DNA of 32,000 nucleotides from the NCBI GenBank assembly GCA_965229705.1, contig OZ245922.1, forward strand, positions 810,001-842,000, read 5' to 3'. A program made the position numbers and the translations under genes. Positions 1,390 through 31,570 of this stretch are shown one piece after another. The notes below the pieces were generated by a model. It searched no databases. It had not been told where the DNA came from and saw only the letters and a list, made by a program, of their open reading frames with translations. Source of the DNA: Candidatus Saccharimonadota bacterium. GTDB lineage: Bacteria > Patescibacteriota > Gracilibacteria > BD1-5 > UBA6164. Within the stretch, counting starts at the first letter, position 1, and each line of letters starts with the position of its first letter.

Positions 1390-1474
1390 CTTTCAGGAAG
1401 CTCTGAGAAAGTCCTTTTTTCTCTCCTTTTACAAATGAGAGATGGCTCGATAGAGCCAGAGAGGATTAGAAAAT
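1390..1474 (+). repeat. MITE-like structured repeat, copy 1 (right terminal inverted repeat missing)
   Basis: ctttcaggaagctctgagaaag..ctctccttttacaaatgagagatggctcgatagagccagagaggattagaaaat aligns with the copies at 7543, 12218, 17598 (reverse orientation) and 20403. It starts 5 nt after the stop of the upstream gene. Confidence 0.8.
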
Positions 1475-1541
1475 CTACGAATACTATTGAGATAATTTTA
1501 AAGCAGTATACTATAATTATCTTTACTCACTCTCACTATAC

Positions 1542-6885: not shown

Positions 6886-7461
6886 ATGAAAAACATACAT
6901 ATTATTCTGTGTCTTCTCTGCATCGCTGCTCTGACGAGTTGTAGTAGTGTAGATACAAAGACATGAGCAGAAAATCTTTCTGCGTGAGTTTCAGAAAACA
7001 ATATATCTCCTAATACAACACAAACTATGGCAAAAGAAGTAGTCAGTAGTGGCGACCAAGTAGAGGTTCATTATGTGGGAACACTGGAAAATGGTGAAGT
7101 ATTTGATAGTTCTCGAGACAGAGGACAAACACTTGGGTTTACTGTAGGAGCAGGTCAAATGATCTCTGGTTTTGATGCTGGAGTTGTGGGGATGAAGCTC
7201 TGAGAAACAAAGACGCTCACACTGAGTCCAAGTGAGGCGTATGGTGAGCGTGCTGATACAGCTCAGCAAACCGTCCCAAAAGCAGATCTTGCGAGTTTTA
7301 CTGCTGCAGGGTTTACTCTGGAGGTATGAGAGGAGCTTCCAACGCAGATGGGAAATTTCCCTATTATTGCTGCTGATGAAGAAACAATAACACTTGATAT
7401 GAATCATCCTCTTGCAGGAAAAACACTGATATTTGAGGTAGAGATTATAAAAATTCAATAA
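6886..7461 (+). CDS. SlyD-like FKBP-type peptidyl-prolyl cis-trans isomerase, predicted lipoprotein
   Basis: The N-terminus MKNIHIILCLLCIAALTSC has a lipobox-like signal. It is followed by VEVHYVGTLENGEVFDSS..GFTVGAGQMISGFDAGVVGMKLGE..DMNHPLAGKTLIFEVEI, an FKBP fold with an insert-in-flap segment. Stop is TAA at 7459-7461. Confidence 0.85.
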
Positions 7462-7491
7462 CTCAAATATCTTCTCTCTGGTTCAGATATA

Positions 7492-7519
7492 CCCCCTCTC
7501 ATTAGCTAGAGGGGGTTTT
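7492..7519 (+). terminator. rho-independent terminator after the FKBP gene
   Basis: The stem is ccccctct (7492-7499) paired with agaggggg (7508-7515). It has an 8-nt loop and is followed by tttt. Confidence 0.8.
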
Positions 7520-7542
7520 CTATTGTGTAGAGTATAGCTATT

Positions 7543-7652
7543 TTGAAGAAGACTCTGAGAAACTCATTCTTTCTCTCCTTTTACAAAAGAGAGATGGCTC
7601 GATAGAGAGAGAGAGGATTAGAAATTTTTTGTTTTTCAGAGCTTCCTGAAAG
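7543..7652 (+). repeat. MITE-like structured repeat, copy 2 (complete)
   Basis: Left end is ttgaagaagactctgagaaa. Right end is tttttcagagcttcctgaaag, which is its inverted complement type. The conserved core is ctctccttttacaaaagagagatggctcgatagag..agagaggattagaaatttt. It lies between two convergent terminators. Confidence 0.85.
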
Positions 7653-7686
7653 TAGGATATATACCCCGGGGTTGAATTCAAGACAC

Positions 7687-7725
7687 AAAAAAATACCCTT
7701 ATGAAAAATCATAAGGGTATTTTTT
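7687..7725. terminator. bidirectional rho-independent terminator (ends the S-layer gene)
   Basis: A 12-bp perfect stem pairs atacccttatga (7693-7704) with tcataagggtat (7709-7720), with a 4-nt loop. It is flanked by an A-run on the left and ttttt on the right, so it works on both strands. Confidence 0.85.
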
Positions 7726-7751
7726 ATGTGAAAGGAAGAGTATCCTAAAGA

Positions 7752-11825: not shown

Positions 11826-12079
11826 AACTATATACGAGTTACAAAAATAAAAACAATTCACCACAACAATGGACGGTTAAAGCCTTAACCCTAAGCTGTT
11901 ATGCGCACAACTAGGGAAGATGAGGGACAAGTATCTCTTATTCCTCCTCTCCCATAGTTCTACGATATATCAGCTTGAGTTGCGACCTCTATTGAAACAT
12001 AAGCAAGGAAGATATTTCTTGCCTACTCATATATTTTCGAATAGATGTTAAAGATCGGCATATCGCGCAAAACATCAAC

Positions 12080-12217: not shown

Positions 12218-12326
12218 CTTGAGCAGGCTCTGAGAAACTCTTTTTCTCTCTCCTTTTGCAAAGAAAAGATAGCTCGATAGAGCCAGAGAGGTTGAGAAAT
12301 TTTTCTCTTTTTCAGAGTCTTCTTAA
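12218..12326 (+). repeat. MITE-like structured repeat, copy 3 (complete)
   Basis: Sequence is cttgagcaggctctgagaaactc..ctctccttttgcaaagaaaagatagctcgatagagccagagaggttgagaaattttt..tttttcagagtcttcttaa. It sits 28 nt downstream of the brnA stop and upstream of the S-layer gene. Confidence 0.85.
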
Positions 12327-12354
12327 TTATGTGAAGATTGAGTGAAGAGAAAGA

Positions 12355-12666
12355 CTATCGTTCGATAATATCTCCGTTAGCAAATTGATGAAGTACTGAG
12401 CTTACAAGTGTTTGATATGGAATACCTTTCTTTTGCGCGAGAGTCTTGAGACGGGAAATATCCCTGCGTTGAAGACGAAATGTCACTGATTTTCTCTGCT
12501 GGCTTAGTTGTAAATCTTGTTGCCATTGTTTATTGAGATGGACAACCTCATCTTTTGTAGGAATTATGACGTCGCCTTTTGTTATTGCCATATCCATAGT
12601 CTCCATAATTTCACGCTCCTCATCATCAAGATAAGGGGCATCATAACGTATTTTTGTTCTATCCAT
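12355..12666 (-). CDS. brnA: BrnA-type antitoxin (C-terminal ribbon-helix-helix)
   Basis: Intact 103-aa ORF. The C-terminus SVTFRLQRRDISRLKTLAQKKGIPYQTLVSSVLHQFANGDI matches the BrnA/CopG-like pattern. It overlaps brnT by 8 nt. Stop is TAG. There is no in-frame TGA. Confidence 0.8.
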   Translation of the reverse strand: MDRTKIRYDAPYLDDEEREIMETMDMAITKGDVIIPTKDEVVHLNKQWQQDLQLSQQRKSVTFRLQRRDISRLKTLAQKKGIPYQTLVSSVLHQFANGDIIER

Positions 12667-12949
12667 GATAATTTTTATTACAATATAACTTCATCGATTT
12701 GCGACTCGCATACAAGGTTTTTAAGAAAATTCCTTGTTCACTTTTTACATAGGGAACATTGAATACATAGCCCTCAATCAAAACTATCAACATTCTTTGA
12801 TGAGGATATTTCTCATGTAAGTGATGAGGCACATCTGCTATGACATTTCCCTGTAATATTGCAGATTCTACATCTTCAAAGCATACACCCCTCTCTCTTT
12901 GGAGAACCCTATTCTTGTTCGCACTCCATGTAATCTCTCCATAATTCAT
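12659..12949 (-). CDS. brnT: BrnT-family (DUF497) ribonuclease toxin
   Basis: Intact 96-aa ORF. ITWSANKNRVLQRERGVCFEDVESAI fits the DUF497 signature (W..K...N..KHGV.FEEA). The C-terminal ..IFLKTLYASRKSMKLY also fits. Stop is TAG. There is no in-frame TGA. Confidence 0.75.
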   Translation of the reverse strand: MNYGEITWSANKNRVLQRERGVCFEDVESAILQGNVIADVPHHLHEKYPHQRMLIVLIEGYVFNVPYVKSEQGIFLKTLYASRKSMKLYCNKNYHG

Positions 12950-16711: not shown

Positions 16712-17560
16712 TTACAATGCTAAATCGTGAGAAATATACTCCAGCTCCAGCTGGAAACTTGTCTTTTGTGTATAGGGCGATTTTTGACTCTGGCTATAGC
16801 TAAGGTTTTCTGTTTTTGAAAGAAGAATAAATGGTGAATCATCTGCATTTTCAATATAATCCATAAAAGCGCTCGCTCTTGTAATAGAGCTTCCCTCAAA
16901 GTTATAGAGTAATACCCCATTTTTTAGTCCAGCAATGGCCGTATCCCAGTCTGAAGAATAGGCATCACAGCTGATACGCATCTTAGTACTGTCAAAAAAC
17001 TCTATGTCATAGCATTGGAGCTCGCTTTTATCAACCGGTGAATAGGTGTTTTTTAAGGTATCAAACTCCTGAAGTATTGTGAGTGGGCGCATTCTTTCTG
17101 CTGATCGTTCGAGGAGAAAGAGTACTTTTTTTGAAGAGTGAAAGTTTTCTAAGCCATATAGTTCTGAAAGGATGGGAGTAATGTTTGATCCCTGAGTATT
17201 TTTTTGTATTTCTATATTGTTCAAAACTTCTTGGCGTGATCCATAGAGGTTATGACATGATCATCCTGCATACTTTTCATATACATCTCATAGAAATACC
17301 TGGCAAAAAGGAGAGAGAAAGTTATAGGTCTTTTTTTCTTCTTGGGTTTGAATGAATATATATGTATACGCAAAGAGAAGTGTGAGAAGTAATATAATAT
17401 TCAGTGAAGTAAAAAATCTGCTACTATAACTGAGATAGTCATACAGTTTTTCTTCTTTTGAGGGGTTTTGTATATCTTCTTCTCACTGATCTTGCTGAAA
17501 ATCATCAAATATATTTTCCGCATGAATATCATTTTTTGGAGAATTTTCTTCTGAAAGCAT
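16712..17560 (-). CDS. hypothetical single-pass membrane protein, first gene of the pilus operon (282 aa)
   Basis: Start is ATG at 17558-17560. The N-terminus is acidic (MLSEENSPKNDIHAENIFDDFQQDQGEEDIQNP). One TM helix follows (FFTSLNIILLLTLLFAYTYIFI), then an extracytoplasmic domain that corresponds to track ORF 16712..17224. Stop is TAA at 16712-16714. Confidence 0.65.
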
Positions 17561-17597
17561 AAAACTATAAAAATAAGGAAGTATTTTTTGGTGTTTC

Positions 17598-17694
17598 TTT
17601 AAGCAGGCTCTGAAAAATAGAAATTTTCTAATCCTCTCTGGCTCTAACGAGCCATCTCTCCTTTGAAAAAGGAGTTTCTCAAAGGTTCCTTAAG
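17598..17694 (-). repeat. MITE-like structured repeat, copy 4 (inverted orientation, about 12-nt internal deletion)
   Basis: The reverse complement reads cttaaggaacctttgagaaactcctttttcaaaggagagatggctcgttagagccagagaggattagaaaatttctatttttcagagcctgcttaaag. It lies between the dinG stop (17757) and the pilus operon start (17560). Confidence 0.85.
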
Positions 17695-17756
17695 GAGTTT
17701 CTTAGTGTATCATATCAGAAAAACAACGCTCTGCCAATATATCAATCTTTACAAAA

Positions 17757-20381: not shown

Positions 20382-20402
20382 ATGGCAAAAAAATTACAAA
20401 GC

Positions 20403-20511
20403 TTTAAGGAAGTTCTGAAAAACTCCTTTTTTCTCTCCTTTTGCAAAGGAGAGATGGCTCAATAGAGCCAGAGTGGATTGGAAAATTTTCGTTTCTCAGA
20501 GGTTCCTTAAG
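20403..20511 (+). repeat. MITE-like structured repeat, copy 5 (complete, best terminal inverted repeats)
   Basis: Left end is cttaaggaagttctgaaaaac. Right end is gtttctcagaggttccttaag. The core is ctctccttttgcaaaggagagatggctcaatagagccagagtggattggaaaatttt. An extra partial end motif tctctgagaaag follows at 20514-20525. The whole copy lies inside the 3' end of the pseudouridine synthase ORF. Confidence 0.85.
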
Positions 20512-21237
20512 AAATCTCTGAGAAAGCTTGTGTATAAGCTCTTGAAGTGATACTTCTTCCTTATAGGAAAGCTTCTGATATACTCCACTCTCAAGGTTTT
20601 CTATAAAAATATTTCCTATCCGAGTCCGATGCAGTCTTTTTACTTTTCATCATACTGCCTCAACCATTCTGCGTATCTGCCTGTTTCTTCACTCTTTGAG
20701 AATAATGGAAAATTTTCATGAAGCTATTCTCGTTATTTTACACTTCTTTGTCCATCTTCATAAAATATATACTCAGCGACTCATATGCCTGAGAGCCTCA
20801 TCAGATATAGGACCAAAAGTTTCTACTCGATATTCTTTCTCGTGTTCATAGCGAGGATGTGTGAGATAATTTGTTAGACGTCCGTCATTTGTCAGTAATA
20901 TAAGCCCCGTAGAGTCTTTATCAAGTCTCCCTATAGGAAAAACACGCTCTGGTATATCAACTATATCGAGCAAAGACTTTCATCATCTTTGCGCGCAGGT
21001 TGTCTCAATTCATCGAGGTTTATACATCTTATAGTATACAAGGTTTTGCTGAGATACTATCGCCGTTTTTCAAAGCTCTACAGTATCAACACCCTCTATA
21101 ACTGACATACCGAGCTCTGCTTTTTTTCCATTGACAAAAACCTCTCCATTTTGAATATACTCCTCAGCCTTTCTTCGGGAGCATATTCCCTTCATACTCA
21201 TATATTTTTGCAGACGCATTGTTTGTGCTTGAGTCAT
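20404..21237 (-). CDS. S4-domain rRNA pseudouridine synthase (RsuA/RluB/RluF family) with a repeat-derived C-terminal tail
   Basis: The S4 domain is MRLQKYMSMKGICSRRKAEEYIQNGEVFVNG. The catalytic motif is FPIGRLDKDSTGLILLTNDG, followed by NRQIRRMVEAVG. Under code 25 the frame stays open through the whole repeat copy 5. It stops only at TAA 20404-20406. Confidence 0.8.
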
Positions 21238-22240: not shown

Positions 22241-25087
22241 TTATTTTCCAAATCTTGCTTCATATTTTTGTATTGCCTGCCCTGTATAACTCTTTTGGCA
22301 TTTTTTTACCACCTCTATATCTCACTGTACCATAAGATCTCACCCAGCATCTCCTCACTCAGGACCTATATCTACGATATAGTCTGCATTGAGAATAATA
22401 TTCATATTATGCTCTATGACTATTACCGTATTTCACTTATCCACTAATCCATGAAGAATATGCAGAAGTTTTTCTATATCTTGAAAGTGTAGACCTGTTG
22501 TAGGTTCATCAAGAATATACACTGTTTTTGATGTTGAACGCTTAGAAAGTTCTGTTGCGAGCTTGATTCGCTGCGCCTCTCATCATGAAAGAGTAGTTGA
22601 AGATTGACCGAGCTTTATATACCCCAGACCTACCCTACTGAGTACTTCGAGTGTTTTTATAATTCTTGGATGTGCATGAAAAAAATCAAGCGCCTCTTCT
22701 ACTGTCATTTCCAGAATATCTGAAATATCTTTTCCTTTATACTTAATCTCGAGCGTCTCTGCATTAAATCTCTTCCCCTCACATTCTTCACACACCGTAT
22801 ACACAGGAGGGAGGAAGTGCATTTCTATTTTTTTCACTCCATCACCGTCACACTCATTACAACGACCATGCTTCGTATTAAATGAAAACCTTCCTGGAAC
22901 GTATCCTCTGAGCTTTGCATCATAACTCATCGCAAATACTTCTCGAATAAAGGTAAATACCCCCGTATAAGTTGCAGGATTTGATCGTGGCGTCTTTCCG
23001 ATAGGAGACTGATCAATTACCAAAGCTTTATCAAAGTTTTCTGCTCCTGTGATTTTTTGATGTTTTCAGACGGTTCTATTTGCCTTATTCAGCGTATTAA
23101 GGAGATATGATGCAAGAATATCATTTATCAAAGAAGATTTTCCTGATCATGAAACACCGGTCACGATACTGAGATTTCCTATAGGGAAGTGTACATCTAT
23201 ATTTTTGAGATTATGTTGTTTTGCTCCATGAATAGTGAGGTATTTTTCTTGTTTTCTCTTCTTTTTGTCTACAATCACAGATTTTTGTCCACTCAGATAT
23301 GGTCCTGTAAGAGATGTTGTATTTTTACAGATTGTAGCAAAGTCTCACTCTGCTATGACTTGTCATCCGTGTATACCTGCTCCAGGTCAAATATCTATAA
23401 TATGATCTGATTCTCGCATAATGTCTTCGTCATGTTCAACAACGATAAGAGTGTTTCAGAGATCTCTGAGCTTTTTGAGGTTATGTATCAGCATATCATT
23501 ATCTCGAGGATGAAGCCCAATAGAAGGCTCATCTAAGATATAGATAATCCCTTCCAGTTTTACTCCTATTTGTGTTGCGAGGCGAATTCGTTGTGCCTCT
23601 CATCATGAAAGAGTGTTTGATTTTCGAGAGAGTGTCATATATGAGAGTCAAACTCACGAGAGAAACTCTAACCTGTCAGAGATATTTTTGACGACTTTTT
23701 CTGCAACTTTTTTTTCTTCTTGAGAGAGCTTAAGTTTTTGTATCCATTTTTGGGTATCTACGACATTCATAGCTGTGAGTTCTCCTATATTTTTTCATCA
23801 TATATTTTTTCATCATACTTTCACGCTCAATGCCTCTTGTGTGAGACGATACCCTGAGCAAGAAGGACACTCTATATTCGTCACATAGTCATCATAGTGT
23901 CCATGCTCTACTCCTCCATCATAGTATCTACGCGTGAGTGTTGGTATCACTCCTTCAAAGCGAGAATTATAGGTATTACTTCTTCATTGCTCATTGACAA
24001 AGCTCACCGAATAGAGCTCTTGTCCTGTTCACTGCATGATGCATTCTCTCTCTCGATGAGAGAGTTTTCCATAGGGAATATGCGTATTGATCGCATGTTT
24101 TTTTCCAACCTCTTCTATTAGAGCCAAGAAGTAGTTTCCAAATCATGGTGGCAATACTGCTCACTCGGCAAGTGTGAGCTTTGGATTGATAAGTGACTCT
24201 TCCAAAAATACCATTTTTTCTCATAATCCATGACACTCAGGACATGCTCATGAATGTGAGTTAAAACTCAAAGAAGATATAGTGAGTTTTTCTGGAATAT
24301 GACCACAGCTACTACATACAAAAATCTGAGAAAAGCTTTTTTTTTCTTTTCCAAGTATCTGTATAGATAACTGTCAGAGTCAAAATTTGTAGGCAATTTC
24401 CAAAGAATCTTTTAGGCGTTTTGTATCACTTGAATCACTTTGAGAAAAGTCTTTTACCACAAGTCTGTCTACTATTATTTCAACAAGTGGATTGCTCTCT
24501 GTAAAGGTAAAATCATCATTGACATTTTTTTCTTCTCCATTTATCAGAAAGCGTATAAATCCTGCATCAAGGACTTCTTTTTTTATTTTTTCTGCGCTGA
24601 GGTCTTGGTGCTTTCGAAGAAATGGGCAAGTCAGATAAAACTTCGTTCAAAGTTCATGAGAGGAAATATAAGAAATGATATCTTTTGTGCTATCTTTTTG
24701 AATATGATCTCCACACTCAATACAGTATCGTTTTCATATATGAAGATAGAGAAGTTTATAGTAGTCATATATTTCTGTAATCGTTCATACGGTACTTCGT
24801 GGATTTCTATTTGTCGTTTTTTGATCTATAGAAATAGTCGGAGAGAGTCATGATATTTCCTCATAGAGTGCCTCGTCTTTGTTGTTTCCCACAAACATTC
24901 GTGCATAACTTGAAAGACTCTCAAGGTATTTTTGCTGACCAATCGAATATATCGTTGCAAAGGCAAGTGATGATTTCCCCGATCATGAAAGTCCCGTAAT
25001 AACGGTAAGAGTATTTTTTGGTATTTTTACATCAATATTTTTGAGATTATGTGTTTTTGCTCCGCGAACTTCGAGAAATTTTGACAT
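22241..25087 (-). CDS. uvrA: excinuclease ABC subunit A
   Basis: N-terminus is [65 protein letters not shown]. Both ABC signatures LSGGE have both Gly encoded by TGA (23597-23611 and 22577-22591). Zinc-finger cysteines are present. The C-terminus is DIGPEGGDAGG..SYTGQ. Stop is TAA at 22241-22243. Confidence 0.92.
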
Positions 25088-25188
25088 AAAAAGACATAAA
25101 AAAAGTATGAAGTAGTATCTTAATCGAAAAAGAGATTATTCAAGTTTTTGATGGAGAGAGTATTGAATATATCGAGTTTCTGAGTATC

Positions 25189-25884
25189 TTAAGAAGCCTC
25201 TGAGAAACGTAAATAATAGTCGCGCATATTTTCTTGAAAAATTCTTTCAGGAATCCAAACTTGTGAACCAATGAGATAATACGCTTTTTCATCTGGTCGT
25301 ATTTCTCTTGCTTTGCTTGTCTTTCATGCAAATAAATGAAATCACTGCTGTGAAAAAGTACATGAAAATGATTGAGAAATTCTTTTTCCTTTTCAAAGGT
25401 ATCTTTGTCTTTTTTTTGATGTTTTACAGGTATTATCTCGTACTTGACAGTGATGTTGAAAACAAAAAACTACATGTGTTCATTCCTCTACTTGTTTCAA
25501 TGACTCTACCATCACATCTATATATTTTTTCTGCATTCAGTCTCATCCGTTTCGAGGGTCAAAAATACTATACCATCACTCAATATTAAAATCTCGGCGA
25601 AAAACTTTTGTATTTTTTTGTTGTTTTTGTGAAGCTCTATCAGAGAAAAGTGCTTCTTGAAGAGAAGTATTATGAAAAAACTCTTGATCTGCAAATCATG
25701 GTATCGTATGTCAGCAACTTCCACAACTCCCTCTTATATAATCATCTTCTTTACCACAGATTGGGCATGAGTCTTCTTTATAGTCTAAAACACTACTTGC
25801 ACAAAAAGCGTACGCATCTCTTGGTGATGTAAGCGCGGAAGATACTCATCAAAGAATTTGAGAGTTTACACCATGTTTTTCCAT
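25189..25884 (-). CDS. hypothetical Cys-rich protein with N-terminal zinc-ribbon motif (231 aa)
   Basis: This is the only frame free of TAA/TAG across the 800-bp gap between comFC and uvrA: 232 codons with 11 TGA. It contains CPICGKEDDYIRGSCGSCGH and further Cys clusters. The call is uncertain because two other frames here also hold 70-157 codon ORFs with more ordinary K/E/F/I/L-rich composition. Confidence 0.45.
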
Positions 25885-25901
25885 AAGATATACTTTATCA
25901 G

Positions 25902-26594
25902 CTAATCACTTGCGATAGCAACAACCCGAATATCTTGGTATCATACACCTTGTAAAAGTACACATATCTCTTTTACAGTCGAAGCTGTAGATAGTATATC
26001 ATCAATAATGTAAATTGTCGAATTTTGGTCTATTTTTTTTGTATTTCTGAGCGCAAATGTTCATAAAACATTCTTTTTTCTCTCTTTTGCGGTTAAATGA
26101 CTTTGCGATTTTGTCATTGATCTTTTGTAGATCATATCATGTAGCACTACTCCTCCACATATATCTGCAAGAGTCTGCGCGATGATCTCGGACTGATTAT
26201 ATCATCGTTTCCACTTTTTGAGAAAAAAGAGTGGGACAGGAATAAATACAATATTCTTTTCTTGAGAATATATATAACGCCGAAAAAAATCGCTGTGTAC
26301 CTCTATAAGCTCTTTGTATAAAAATGGCTTATGATAGTATTTTCCATGCTGTAAAAGCTTTTTGAGAGTTACATCTCTATATCGACCCAAGACGACTGCC
26401 TGCTGGAAAGGAAAGTCTTTTTTGTATTGTGGATATGTATAAAACGCATCTGAATATTTCTTTGAAGCGTAACAATAAGGAGTATTCACCGGAATATCTC
26501 GGAGACATCGAGGACAAAAAAAGTGTCAGGGCTGAGAGCACACATAACACTTTTTTTCTCAAAATAACGAAGTAATAAAAGAGTAAAACTTCAT
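25902..26594 (-). CDS. comFC: ComF-family phosphoribosyltransferase (competence protein ComFC-like)
   Basis: The N-terminus has a double CxxC (CYVCSQPGHFFCPRC). GYNQSEIIAQ follows, then the PRTase motif IYIIDDILSTASTV. Start is ATG at 26592-26594. Stop is TAG at 25902-25904. Confidence 0.8.
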
Positions 26595-30301: not shown

Positions 30302-31570
30302 ATGCAAGAGTGAAAAAATAGAGTTTTTCTGAATTTTATCATTGTTTTGACATCTTTTTTGCTGGGATTGTGAATTTCTCATATATTCTATACACAGAAA
30401 CTGGCACATAAAGATATCGAGACTCGATTTTTAGGAACTTCCTACAATCTTGATATGCAAGAGTTTTGGGATGTATATCAGCTGATATGAGATGAGTTTT
30501 TTTCTCAAGATGGCGTGAAGAAACAAGACCTTGTATATGGCGCAATAGAGTGAATGGTTGCAGCTCTATGAGATGAACATAGTGAGTTTTTTTCTCCAAG
30601 TGCGACAGAAAAGTTTCATACTTCGCTCTCATGAGATTTTGAGGGAATAGGAGCCGTAGTAGAGAAAGTTCCTCTTTGAGTAAAAATTGAAAGAATTTTC
30701 AAAGGTTCTCCCGCAAAAAAATATGGACTCTTTTCCGGAGACATCCTGATCTCTGCAAATGGTGAGAGTCTGGTAGGCCTCGATATATTTGATGCGGTTG
30801 AAAAGATCAAAGGACCTGCAGGAAGTGAGGTGATTTTAGAGATACTGAGAGTATGAGAAAGTGATATTATAGAGCGAACGGTTGTGCGGGATAAGATACA
30901 TATTCCTTCGGTAGAAATAGAAGAAATATGAGAAGATGTTCTCTATATTTCTCTTAATATGTTTGGTGACTCAAGTGTGGAAGAGTTTTGAGAAGCAATT
31001 TCTTTGGCAATATCTTCACAAAAACAAGGACTTATTATTGATCTTAGAGATAATGGCTGATGATATCTCGACAGCGCTGTAAGTATTTTGTCATATTTTA
31101 TAGATACTGGAGAAGTACTGGTAGAGACAAGATATAGAAAATCTTTTCTTGGAAAGACCTATACTTCACAAAAGAATGATCAAAAATATACCGGAAAAAT
31201 AGTTGTACTCATCAATAGAAACTCTGCGAGTGCTTCTGAAATAGTTGCTTGAGCACTCAGAGAGTATCACAAGGCAATTCTTGTAGGAGAAAAAAGTTTT
31301 GGAAAAGGGTCAGTCCAAGAGGCATACAATCTCGTTTCTCAGAGTCTGTTAAAACTTACGGTTGCTCAGTGGTTCACTCCTCAAGGGAAAAACATCGAAG
31401 ATGAGGGAATACAGCCAGATATAGAAGTATTTTTTGAGTGAGAGGATTTTGAAAATGACTATGATAGACAGCTAGAGGAGGCAAAAAAAGTTCTTCGTAT
31501 GTTTCAGGTAGAAAACACTCTTTGACTTACTTTGGAGAAATATCATGAGGAGAATAGTAAAGAAGAGTAA
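30302..31570 (+). CDS. ctpA: C-terminal processing peptidase (S41 family) with PDZ domain
   Basis: The signal-anchor N-terminus is MQEGKNRVFLNFIIVLTSFLLGLGI. Then GDFEGIGAVV, a PDZ segment (GSPAKKYGLFSGDILISANGES), DLRDNGGGYL (two Gly are TGA), NRNSASASEIVAGAL, and GEKSFGKGSVQ. Stop is TAA at 31568-31570. Confidence 0.88.

What the first reader, a model, noticed from the sequence alone, without database searches (positions are those of the whole stretch)
7543..7652. Family of ~110-bp structured MITE-like repeats: five copies in 32 kb, all at operon boundaries
Copies lie at 1390-1474 (right end missing), 7543-7652, 12218-12326, 17598-17694 (inverted, with a 12-nt internal deletion) and 20403-20511.

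The consensus layout is:
- a terminal inverted repeat of about 19 bp (cttaaggaaSctctgagaaa ... tttctcagagSttccttaag)
- an internal perfect hairpin ctctccttt-gc-aaaggagag
- a second hairpin ggctc-gata-gagcc
- a conserved tail agagaggattagaaaatttt

The two ends can pair, giving a three-way-junction-like fold. The two hairpin arms stay complementary in the copies where they vary (copy 4 has ctccttt/aaaggag). That argues for selection on RNA or DNA structure rather than on a protein. Every copy sits exactly between transcription units. Possible roles are a non-autonomous mobile element, a REP/BIME-like insulator or terminator, or a small RNA gene family.
Basis: seen in the sequence. Interest (0 to 1): 0.7.

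Follow-up and report, generated by a model that had tools for sequence, protein, structure and literature searches.

The report
MITE-like intergenic repeats in Gracilibacteria
Five diverged copies of a ~111-bp non-coding repeat with inverted ends fill the larger gene spacers of this Candidatus Gracilibacteria genome piece; it is most likely a small mobile element that cannot move by itself, an ordinary kind of element though apparently not yet described in this group, and nothing shows it is a selected RNA structure.

Summary
Five copies of a ~111-bp element lie at the stated coordinates, and a 28-nt core pattern finds 5 sites against 0 expected. The consensus has ~22-bp terminal inverted repeats (CTTTAAGGAAGCTCTGAGAAAC) and two small internal hairpins.

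The window reads TGA as glycine (code 25) and comes from Candidatus Gracilibacteria. Under that code all copies are intergenic. Copy 5 also supplies the last ~38 codons and the stop of the RluB-like ORF.

- There is no covariation. Substitutions break hairpin 1 in three copies and hairpin 2 in two, without compensation.
- The 12-nt deletion in copy 4 is slippage between two CTCCTTTT direct repeats, not a compensatory change.
- Orientation relative to genes is mixed, and copies 4 and 5 probably sit inside transcripts.
- No copy occurs in 14 syntenic loci from related Gracilibacteria, in GTDB species representatives, or in JGI metagenome or IMG/VR contigs. There is no Rfam match.

Best reading: a lineage-specific miniature inverted-repeat transposable element (MITE)-like family (confidence 0.62). 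A target-site duplication is seen only at copy 4 (9 bp, 8/9). No transposase lies in the window, and the rest of the genome could not be retrieved. This is a new member of a known kind, of modest interest.

The parts
1391..1476 (+). Copy 1. Left TIR, hairpin 1 (one mismatch), hairpin 2 (intact) and tail. The right TIR is missing or degenerate. It starts 7 nt after the stop of ORF 2-1384 and lies upstream of the QueA-like gene (ATG at 1542).
   Evidence: (80.9 bits)
7543..7653 (+). Copy 2, the focal copy. Left TIR 7543-7563, hairpin 1 7573-7593 (one mismatch), hairpin 2 7596-7609 (right arm broken: GAGAG), tail 7610-7630, right TIR 7631-7652. It sits between convergent intrinsic terminators at 7491-7516 (+) and 7725-7688 (-).
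   Evidence: (116.3 bits)
12218..12329 (+). Copy 3. Hairpin 1 has two mismatches and the base pair closing hairpin 2 is lost. It lies between the stop of the CopG-type antitoxin gene (12355, - strand) and the conserved promoter and leader region of the S-layer-like gene.
   Evidence: (112.5 bits)
17596..17694 (-). Copy 4, inverted, with a 12-nt deletion between two CTCCTTTT direct repeats. Both hairpins are intact. A 9-bp direct repeat AGAAAC[T/A]CC abuts both ends (17589-17597 and 17694-17702). It lies between a promoter-like site (17737-17709) and the ATG at 17560.
   Evidence: (91.1 bits)
20403..20526 (+). Copy 5 (20403-20513), the best-preserved copy, plus a 13-nt partial inverted TIR (to 20526) that makes the right end a hairpin. 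On the - strand it encodes the last ~38 codons and the TAA stop of the RluB-like ORF. It ends 22 nt upstream of the DinG-like ATG (20381).
   Evidence: (128.2 bits)
25176..25210 (.). Solo palindrome made of a right-TIR-like arm and a left-TIR-like arm joined at TTAA (GTTTCTGAGtatcTTAAgaagcCTCTGAGAAAC), with no core. It lies about 90 nt upstream of the UvrA start.

Best explanation
The five repeats are diverged copies of a ~111-bp miniature inverted-repeat transposable element (MITE) family specific to this Candidatus Gracilibacteria lineage (genetic code 25).

Each copy has ~22-bp terminal inverted repeats (consensus CTTTAAGGAAGCTCTGAGAAAC) around a non-coding core with two small hairpins. The inferred mechanism is that a transposase encoded elsewhere in the genome recognised the inverted ends and inserted copies in either orientation. 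Only insertions into the few tolerated intergenic spacers survived. The copies have since decayed neutrally to 77-89% identity.

Effects on the host look incidental:
- a C-terminal extension of the RluB-like protein;
- an insertion into a probable 5' untranslated region;
- extra hairpins in spacers.

Shown: the repeat family, its anatomy, its intergenic and mixed-orientation distribution, the lack of compensation, and its absence from relatives. Inferred: transposition itself, the type of transposase, and the lack of function.
For: - Real multi-copy family, 5 matches against 0 expected.
- ~22-bp TIRs at 9 ends, with the inner 11-mer CTCTGAGAAAC best conserved.
- No conserved ORF. A profile built from the element's open frames finds no protein in 5.8 billion sequences.
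- Both orientations occur relative to flanking genes, and positions relative to promoters and terminators vary.
- Mutations in the stems are not compensated, as expected for neutral decay of copies of a palindromic master element.
- No copy in about 270 kb of syntenic loci from 14 related Gracilibacteria loci (L002-L012, L085-L087). No exact core match in GTDB species representatives, JGI metagenome contigs or IMG/VR contigs.
- The spacer between the DinG-like gene and the next gene is 196 bp here and 95 bp in L002, a difference equal to the length of copy 4.
- Copy 4 has a 9-bp direct repeat (8/9) abutting both ends exactly.
- The sites of copies 2, 3 and 5 coincide with gene-content differences from relatives, so they look like plasticity hot spots.
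- No Rfam family at gathering or permissive thresholds.
Against: - No transposase lies in the window, and none with matching ends could be looked for because the rest of the genome was not retrievable.
- A target-site duplication is seen at only one of four complete copies.
- The outermost 10 bp of each end are the least conserved part (63% against about 85% elsewhere). Active MITE families usually show the opposite.
- Two ends and one solo site carry abutted inverted TIR fragments, which a simple cut-and-paste model does not explain.
- Five copies are too few to exclude weak selection on structure.
Confidence: 0.62

Rival explanations
1. REPIN-like element: two inverted REP-type ends form a hairpin in single-stranded DNA and are mobilised by a single-copy REP-associated tyrosine transposase (RAYT, IS200-like Y1 family), not by a DDE transposase.
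For: - The size (~110 bp) and inverted-doublet architecture resemble REPINs (PMC3337134).
- RAYT-like Y1_Tnp genes are widespread in Gracilibacteria. In L085 and L087 one sits at the site orthologous to copy 2.
- A solo palindrome (25176-25210) and hairpin-forming ends recall REP singlets.
Against: - The palindromes flanking the relatives' RAYT-like genes (GAGACCGGTCTC, TGGTACCGGTACCA) are unrelated to this element's ends, and no such palindrome occurs in the window.
- There is no Y1_Tnp gene or remnant in the window.
- None of the top 120 RAYT homologues comes from the 1,006,762-bp source contig.
- Here the core is as conserved as the ends and is not one long hairpin, whereas REPIN spacers vary in sequence but stay hairpin-forming.
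Confidence: 0.1
2. A functional structured RNA or DNA element, for example a small-RNA gene family, a transcription attenuator or insulator, or an mRNA-stabilising hairpin, possibly a domesticated MITE.
For: - Single-strand folds are more stable than shuffles in the element's + orientation (z = -1.8 to -3.9).
- The core (columns 22-89) is better conserved than the outer ends.
- Copy 3 occupies the position where relatives have a terminator hairpin after the PilC-like gene.
- Hairpin 2 followed by a UCUCUCCUUU tail on the antisense strand is flagged as weakly terminator-like.
Against: - There is no covariation, and uncompensated stem mutations occur in 3 of 5 copies.
- Mixed orientation relative to transcription means no single strand is consistently expressed.
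- Copy 2 lies between two strong convergent terminators, where no regulatory element is needed.
- No U-tract follows the long stem, and no built-in promoter consensus is shared by the copies.
- It is absent from all relatives even though their genes are syntenic.
- No Rfam match.
Confidence: 0.12
3. The conserved unit is really the 11-mer CTCTGAGAAAC and its inverted pairs, serving as a protein-binding site or a DNA-uptake-type signal. The 111-bp element is only one carrier of it.
For: - The 11-mer with <=1 mismatch occurs 12 times against 1.39 expected. Exact copies lie inside the FKBP-type gene (7198-7208; 15 of 16 bases match the longer TIR) and the Ctp-type gene (31334-31344).
- There is a solo inverted pair upstream of the UvrA-like gene.
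- The organism encodes a competence and type IV pilus apparatus.
Against: - Only 4 of the 12 sites lie outside element copies, which is within the range of the shuffles (largest 4).
- The motif is essentially absent from relatives (2 chance-level hits in 87 loci).
Confidence: 0.04

Closest known systems
Bacterial MITEs (e.g. Correia/NEMIS of Neisseria, RUP of Streptococcus pneumoniae, ERIC, Nezha of cyanobacteria, bcr1 of Bacillus cereus); comparison from my own knowledge of these families
   Same: About 100-150 bp, terminal inverted repeats, non-coding, many dispersed intergenic copies in both orientations, able to fold into a long hairpin, lineage-restricted, and occasionally fused to the ends of ORFs.
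   Different: There is no sequence similarity to any known family (no Rfam, phage or plasmid hit). The TA or other consistent target duplication typical of those families was not demonstrated. The parent insertion sequence is unknown. The host is a candidate phyla radiation (CPR) bacterium using code 25, a group for which my literature search found no MITE description.
REPIN/RAYT systems (Bertels and Rainey; PMC3337134, PMC3116915)
   Same: An inverted doublet of about 110 bp forming a hairpin, solo palindromic remnants, and RAYT-like genes common in the same phylum.
   Different: The ends are unrelated to the palindromes that flank the relatives' RAYT-like genes. The core is conserved in sequence and is not one continuous hairpin. 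No RAYT was found in the window, or among the listed top 120 of 251 RAYT homologues as a protein from the source contig (the other 131 were not inspected).
Rickettsia palindromic elements (RPE); from my own knowledge
   Same: Palindromic repeats of about 100-150 bp in a small reduced genome that can be read through as part of an ORF, as copy 5 extends the RluB-like protein by about 38 residues.
   Different: RPEs are frequently inserted in-frame inside genes. Here all copies are intergenic and only one touches the end of an ORF.

Membership tests
MITE (non-autonomous DDE-type transposon derivative) | Small size (<~600 bp) and no coding capacity | tested here: met
   99-112 bp. No frame is conserved beyond chance, and a profile of the two open frames finds no protein.
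MITE (non-autonomous DDE-type transposon derivative) | Terminal inverted repeats | tested here: met
   ~22-bp TIR consensus CTTTAAGGAAGCTCTGAGAAAC at 9 ends. 88% of cells pair in the terminal helix.
MITE (non-autonomous DDE-type transposon derivative) | Multiple dispersed copies in one genome | tested here: met
   5 copies plus 1 solo TIR junction in 32 kb. The genome-wide count could not be obtained.
MITE (non-autonomous DDE-type transposon derivative) | Target-site duplication of fixed length flanking each copy | tested here: inconclusive
   Copy 4 has AGAAACTCC / AGAAACACC abutting both ends. Copies 2, 3 and 5 have no significant abutting direct repeat.
MITE (non-autonomous DDE-type transposon derivative) | Autonomous insertion sequence or transposase with matching ends in the genome | not testable with these tools
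   No transposase lies in the window. The 1.0-Mb source contig could not be fetched.
MITE (non-autonomous DDE-type transposon derivative) | Presence/absence polymorphism at orthologous sites | tested here: inconclusive
   All 14 syntenic relatives lack copies, and the spacer at the copy 4 site is about 100 bp shorter in L002. The relatives share <=85% identity in the PilB-like protein, so empty sites cannot be resolved to the base.
REPIN/RAYT | Cognate RAYT gene flanked by the same REP sequences | tested here: not met
   No Y1_Tnp in the window. The relatives' RAYT-like genes are flanked by unrelated CCGG-centred palindromes. The source contig is absent from the top 120 homologues. The whole genome was not examined.
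REPIN/RAYT | Two inverted REPs whose spacer varies in sequence but keeps a continuous hairpin | tested here: not met
   The core is about 85% conserved and forms two local hairpins rather than one continuous stem.
Any Rfam RNA family | Score at or above the family's gathering threshold | tested here: not met
   0 hits at gathering thresholds. The permissive search gives only E>0.8 hits far below threshold; one of them, PyrR at 7573-7727 (29 bits against 54 needed), overlaps copy 2.
Structured functional RNA (generic) | Compensatory base changes that maintain the helices | tested here: not met
   Covariation score 0.036 against 0.056 in shuffles. One double change in 137 cells. Hairpins broken in copies 1-3. 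Power is low with five copies.
Intrinsic terminator | GC-rich stem followed directly by a U-tract, oriented with the upstream gene | tested here: not met
   No T-run follows the TIR stem. Only weak antisense hits on hairpin 2. Orientation relative to genes is mixed. Genuine terminators elsewhere in the window look canonical.

The most novel reading that the evidence does not exclude
The family is a domesticated or mechanistically unusual element in an ultra-small CPR genome. Either it acts as an RNA/DNA-level insulator or attenuator that has taken over the few large spacers, or it moves by a mechanism that leaves abutted, outward-facing TIR palindromes. Such palindromes are seen at the right end of copy 5, possibly at the left end of copy 4 (where the TIR-like piece coincides with the 9-bp direct repeat), and as the solo site at 25176-25210. 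They resemble neither classic target-site duplications nor excision footprints.
Probability: 0.1. Interest if true: 0.6.

Novelty: new member of a known kind. Interest (0 to 1): 0.3.

Why it matters
CPR/Patescibacteria genomes are about 1 Mb, gene-dense and considered poor in mobile DNA. A repeat that occupies nearly every spacer longer than 150 bp in the first 21 kb (about 1.7% of the window) would be a useful marker of genome plasticity and strain variation in Gracilibacteria. It is also a source of assembly breaks and mis-annotated ORF ends, such as the RluB-like extension. Finally, it shows that such windows must be read with code 25 before any 'intergenic' claim is made. It does not open a new biological question unless the complete genome shows function or an unusual transposition mechanism.

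Tried and rejected
**Finding more copies**
- Exact-pattern scans of GTDB representatives, JGI metagenome contigs and IMG/VR contigs gave nothing. The single metagenome hit (L001) is a GC-rich chance match.
- Retrieving the source genome failed.
- A profile of the element's two open frames, searched against 5.8 billion proteins to catch ORFs called across copies, gave no hit.
- Covariance-model searches of 14 syntenic Gracilibacteria loci returned only generic hairpins below 22 bits.

**Known families**
- Rfam at gathering and permissive thresholds, and blastn against phage and plasmid collections, gave nothing relevant.

**Alternative identities rejected**
- Small protein gene. Frames are open on both strands under code 25, but about one open frame in six is expected by chance (my estimate from base composition) and there are no homologues.
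- Integron attC site. The element's inner ends do not match the attC core-site consensus as I recall it (RYYYAAC / GTTRRRY), and the flanking housekeeping genes are syntenic with relatives.
- CRISPR-like array. The cores are conserved rather than variable.
- Remnant of the Y1_Tnp gene at the copy 2 site. tblastn was negative.
- A 26059-26088 'sixth copy'. It is only a T/C-rich 30-mer and gets no covariance-model hit.

**Target-site duplication models**
- TTAA and TA models were tried. The bases concerned belong to the inherited TIR: the variant CTTTCAGG is shared by the left end of copy 1 and the right end of copy 2. They are therefore not duplications.

Full report

Yes. The repeat finder recovers four direct copies (1391-1498, 7543-7650, 12218-12325, 20403-20510) and an inverted one (17584-17674). 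A 28-nt core pattern with up to 3 mismatches hits exactly these five places, against 0.00 expected in shuffles.

I built a covariance model from the five copies (A2 and R1). It scores them at 81-128 bits. The next hits are the same loci on the opposite strand (22-34 bits), and unrelated sites stay below 20 bits. Pairwise identity is 77-89%.

The consensus is CTTTAAGGAAGCTCTGAGAAAC (left TIR), a T-rich spacer, CTCTCCTTT-TGC-AAAGGAGAG (hairpin 1), AT, GGCTC-GATA-GAGCC (hairpin 2), AGAGAGGATTAGAAAATTTT (tail), then GTTTYTCAGAGCTTCCTTAAAG (right TIR).

**2.

With the standard code the window has almost no long ORFs. With TGA as a sense codon it becomes gene-dense: 10.9 kb against 54 kb in ORFs of at least 150 codons. 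The UvrA Walker A motifs read GLS-TGA-SGKS and GVS-TGA-SGKS, so TGA encodes Gly, which is code 25.

The PilB-like ATPase has relatives at 73-85% identity, all from Candidatus Gracilibacteria. One protein is identical except that TGA is translated as Trp; it sits on a 1,006,762-bp NCBI/ENA contig, presumably the source genome. I could not retrieve that contig.

Under code 25 the gene order is: unknown ORF, QueA, bPH, TsaB, Mfd, FKBP, S-layer-like (1357 aa), a BrnT/CopG toxin-antitoxin pair, PilC, PilB, two unknowns, DinG-like, RluB, MurB, UvrA, ComF, PepA, unknown, Ctp. Relatives share this order.

All five copies are intergenic. Together they occupy most of every spacer longer than 150 bp in the first 21 kb.

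**3. Position and orientation**

- Copy 1 (+) starts 7 nt after a stop codon and precedes the QueA promoter-like region.
- Copy 2 (+) lies between two strong convergent intrinsic terminators, 7491-7516 and 7725-7688.
- Copy 3 (+) lies after the stop of the antitoxin gene on the - strand. It is upstream of the conserved TGTGAAGA motifs and leader of the S-layer gene, where relatives have a terminator hairpin.
- Copy 4 (-) lies between a good promoter-like site (TTGGCA-17-TGnTATGAT, 17737-17709) and the ATG at 17560, so it is probably in a 5' untranslated region.
- Copy 5 (+) ends 22 nt upstream of the DinG-like ATG. The RluB-like ORF reads through it on the - strand and stops at the TAA inside the element's terminal TTAA. 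That ORF is 277 aa here against 235-239 aa in relatives.

Orientation relative to transcription is therefore mixed, and 'exactly at operon boundaries' is not established.

**4. Is the structure under selection?**

The data give no sign of it.
- Hairpin 1 has uncompensated mismatches in copies 1, 2 and 3.
- Hairpin 2 has lost its right arm in copy 2 and its closing pair in copy 3.
- On my three-helix structure, 88.3% of cells pair against 89.8% in column shuffles. 493 of 500 shuffles are at least as high, and one cell in 137 changes on both sides.
- The RNAalifold covariation term is +1.16.
- The 12-nt deletion in copy 4 removes one of two CTCCTTTT direct repeats. The 'maintained' hairpin is a by-product of slippage, not a compensatory change.

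Single-strand folds are more stable than shuffles (z = -1.8 to -3.9 on the element's + strand). That is expected for any copy of a palindromic master sequence. Five copies give little statistical power, so weak selection cannot be excluded.

**5. Distribution**

- No copy occurs in about 270 kb from 14 syntenic Gracilibacteria loci (L002-L004, L005-L012, L085-L087).
- There are no exact core matches in one genome per GTDB species or in IMG/VR, and only a chance GC-rich hit in JGI metagenome contigs.
- The inner TIR 11-mer is essentially absent from relatives.
- The spacer between the DinG-like gene and the next gene is 95 bp in L002 and 196 bp here, a difference equal to copy 4.
- Three sites coincide with gene-content differences:
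  - The copy 2 spacer holds a RAYT-like Y1_Tnp gene in L085 and L087.
  - Copy 3 adjoins a toxin-antitoxin pair that relatives lack.
  - Copy 5 replaces a 223-240-aa gene found between the RluB-like and DinG-like genes in L002 and L086.

The family is lineage-specific and sits at plasticity hot spots.

**6. Ends and target sites**

Aligning the nine ends shows that the element extends to CTTT[A/C]AGG. The variant CTTTCAGG is shared by the left end of copy 1 and the right end of copy 2, so these bases are inherited and are not a TTAA or TA duplication.

Only copy 4 has a convincing flanking direct repeat: AGAAACTCC and AGAAACACC abut both ends exactly. Copies 2, 3 and 5 have none above chance.

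The outer 10 bp of each end are only 63% identical between copies, against about 85% elsewhere.

One feature is unexplained. The right end of copy 5 is followed by a partial inverted copy of the TIR joined at TTAA. At the left end of copy 4 the flanking bases resemble the TIR less clearly (about 7 of 11) and coincide with the 9-bp direct repeat. A solo palindrome of the same kind, without a core, lies at 25176-25210 upstream of uvrA.

**7. What it most likely is**

It is most likely a MITE-like non-autonomous transposable element family. Copies were spread by a transposase encoded elsewhere, retained only in tolerated spacers, and are now decaying (confidence about 0.62). Transposition itself and the type of enzyme are inferred, not shown.

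Rivals:
- **REPIN/RAYT-type element (0.10).** RAYT-like genes are common in the phylum. However, their flanking palindromes are unrelated to this element. None is in the window, and none of the top 120 homologues comes from the source contig.
- **Functional RNA or attenuator (0.12).** Mixed orientation, uncompensated mutations, the position of copy 2 between terminators and the absence from relatives all argue against it.
- **Short binding or uptake motif carried by the TIR (0.04).** Non-element occurrences are within chance.

**8. Comparison and novelty**

In architecture and behaviour the element resembles bacterial MITEs (Correia, RUP, ERIC, Nezha, bcr1). Its read-through into an ORF recalls Rickettsia palindromic elements.

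It shares no sequence with any known family. A full-text search found no description of MITEs in CPR bacteria.

It is a new member of a known kind. It is interesting mainly as a marker of genome plasticity in an ultra-small, recoded genome.

Noticed in passing
whole window (e.g. 22241-25087, UvrA-like gene): TGA is a sense codon. The Walker A motifs GLS-TGA-SGKS and GVS-TGA-SGKS show it encodes Gly (genetic code 25). The closest proteins are from Candidatus Gracilibacteria. Standard-code ORF calling fragments every gene.
   Followed up: yes
L085 8998-9618 and L087 9037-9714 (orthologous to window 7462-7751): In two relatives the spacer orthologous to the copy 2 site holds a 170-aa RAYT-like Y1_Tnp gene. 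A short perfect palindrome flanks it and also occurs inside it, six copies at equivalent positions: GAGACCGGTCTC in L087 and TGGTACCGGTACCA in L085. The two in-frame internal copies encode ETGL..ETGL or GTGT..GTGT. Other homologues show KTGL..KTGL, so the two protein sites and the flanking palindromes seem to evolve in concert. I do not know of REP sequences embedded in-frame in their own RAYT gene.
   Followed up: partly
window 25176-25210: A solo palindrome built from a right-TIR-like arm and a left-TIR-like arm joined at TTAA, with no core, about 90 nt upstream of the UvrA start. The same outward-facing junction occurs at the right end of copy 5 (20491-20526); the flank at the left end of copy 4 (17674-17705) resembles it more weakly and overlaps that copy's 9-bp direct repeat. 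Its origin is unexplained; possibilities include tandem insertion followed by deletion, a transposition intermediate or a footprint.
   Followed up: partly
window 7193-7208 and 31334-31344: TIR-like sequence inside coding regions. 15 of 16 bases of the left TIR lie in the FKBP-type gene, encoding the conserved GMKLGET motif, 340 bp from copy 2. An exact CTCTGAGAAAC lies in the Ctp protease gene. The total count outside the elements is within chance.
   Followed up: partly
window 11880-11925 (- strand); L085 5384-5425; L086 12733-12775: A strongly conserved leader lies upstream of the S-layer-like gene: CCCTAGTTGTGCGCATA..CTTAGGGTTAAGGCTTTAACCG, which can form two hairpins. It is preceded by repeated TGTGAAGA motifs and is shared with relatives at <=85% PilB identity. 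It may be a cis-acting structure in the 5' untranslated region. There is no Rfam hit.
   Followed up: no
window 12355-12949 (- strand): A BrnT/DUF4258-like toxin and a CopG-type antitoxin pair is inserted between the PilC-like and S-layer-like genes. The pair is absent from relatives L002, L085, L086 and L087 and lies directly next to copy 3.
   Followed up: partly
window 20382-20530 against L002 4443-5165 and L086 4421-5092: Relatives carry a 223-240-aa gene of unknown function on the opposite strand between the RluB-like and DinG-like genes. The window lacks it and has copy 5 there. The RluB-like ORF is extended by about 38 element-encoded residues.
   Followed up: partly
window 25211-25900: About 700 bp have no confident gene. 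The 323-aa ORF at 25189-26160 (- strand) has no Pfam hit and overlaps the 3' end of the ComF-like gene. No Rfam or tRNA hit lies in this stretch.
   Followed up: no
window 7660-7675; L002 16260-16625; L085 5085-5160: Short GC-rich CCGG-centred palindromes recur in the spacers of these genomes, often as terminator-like pairs. They differ between lineages: ACCCCGGGGT occurs once here next to copy 2, and GAGTCCGGACTC occurs in L002 and L085.
   Followed up: partly
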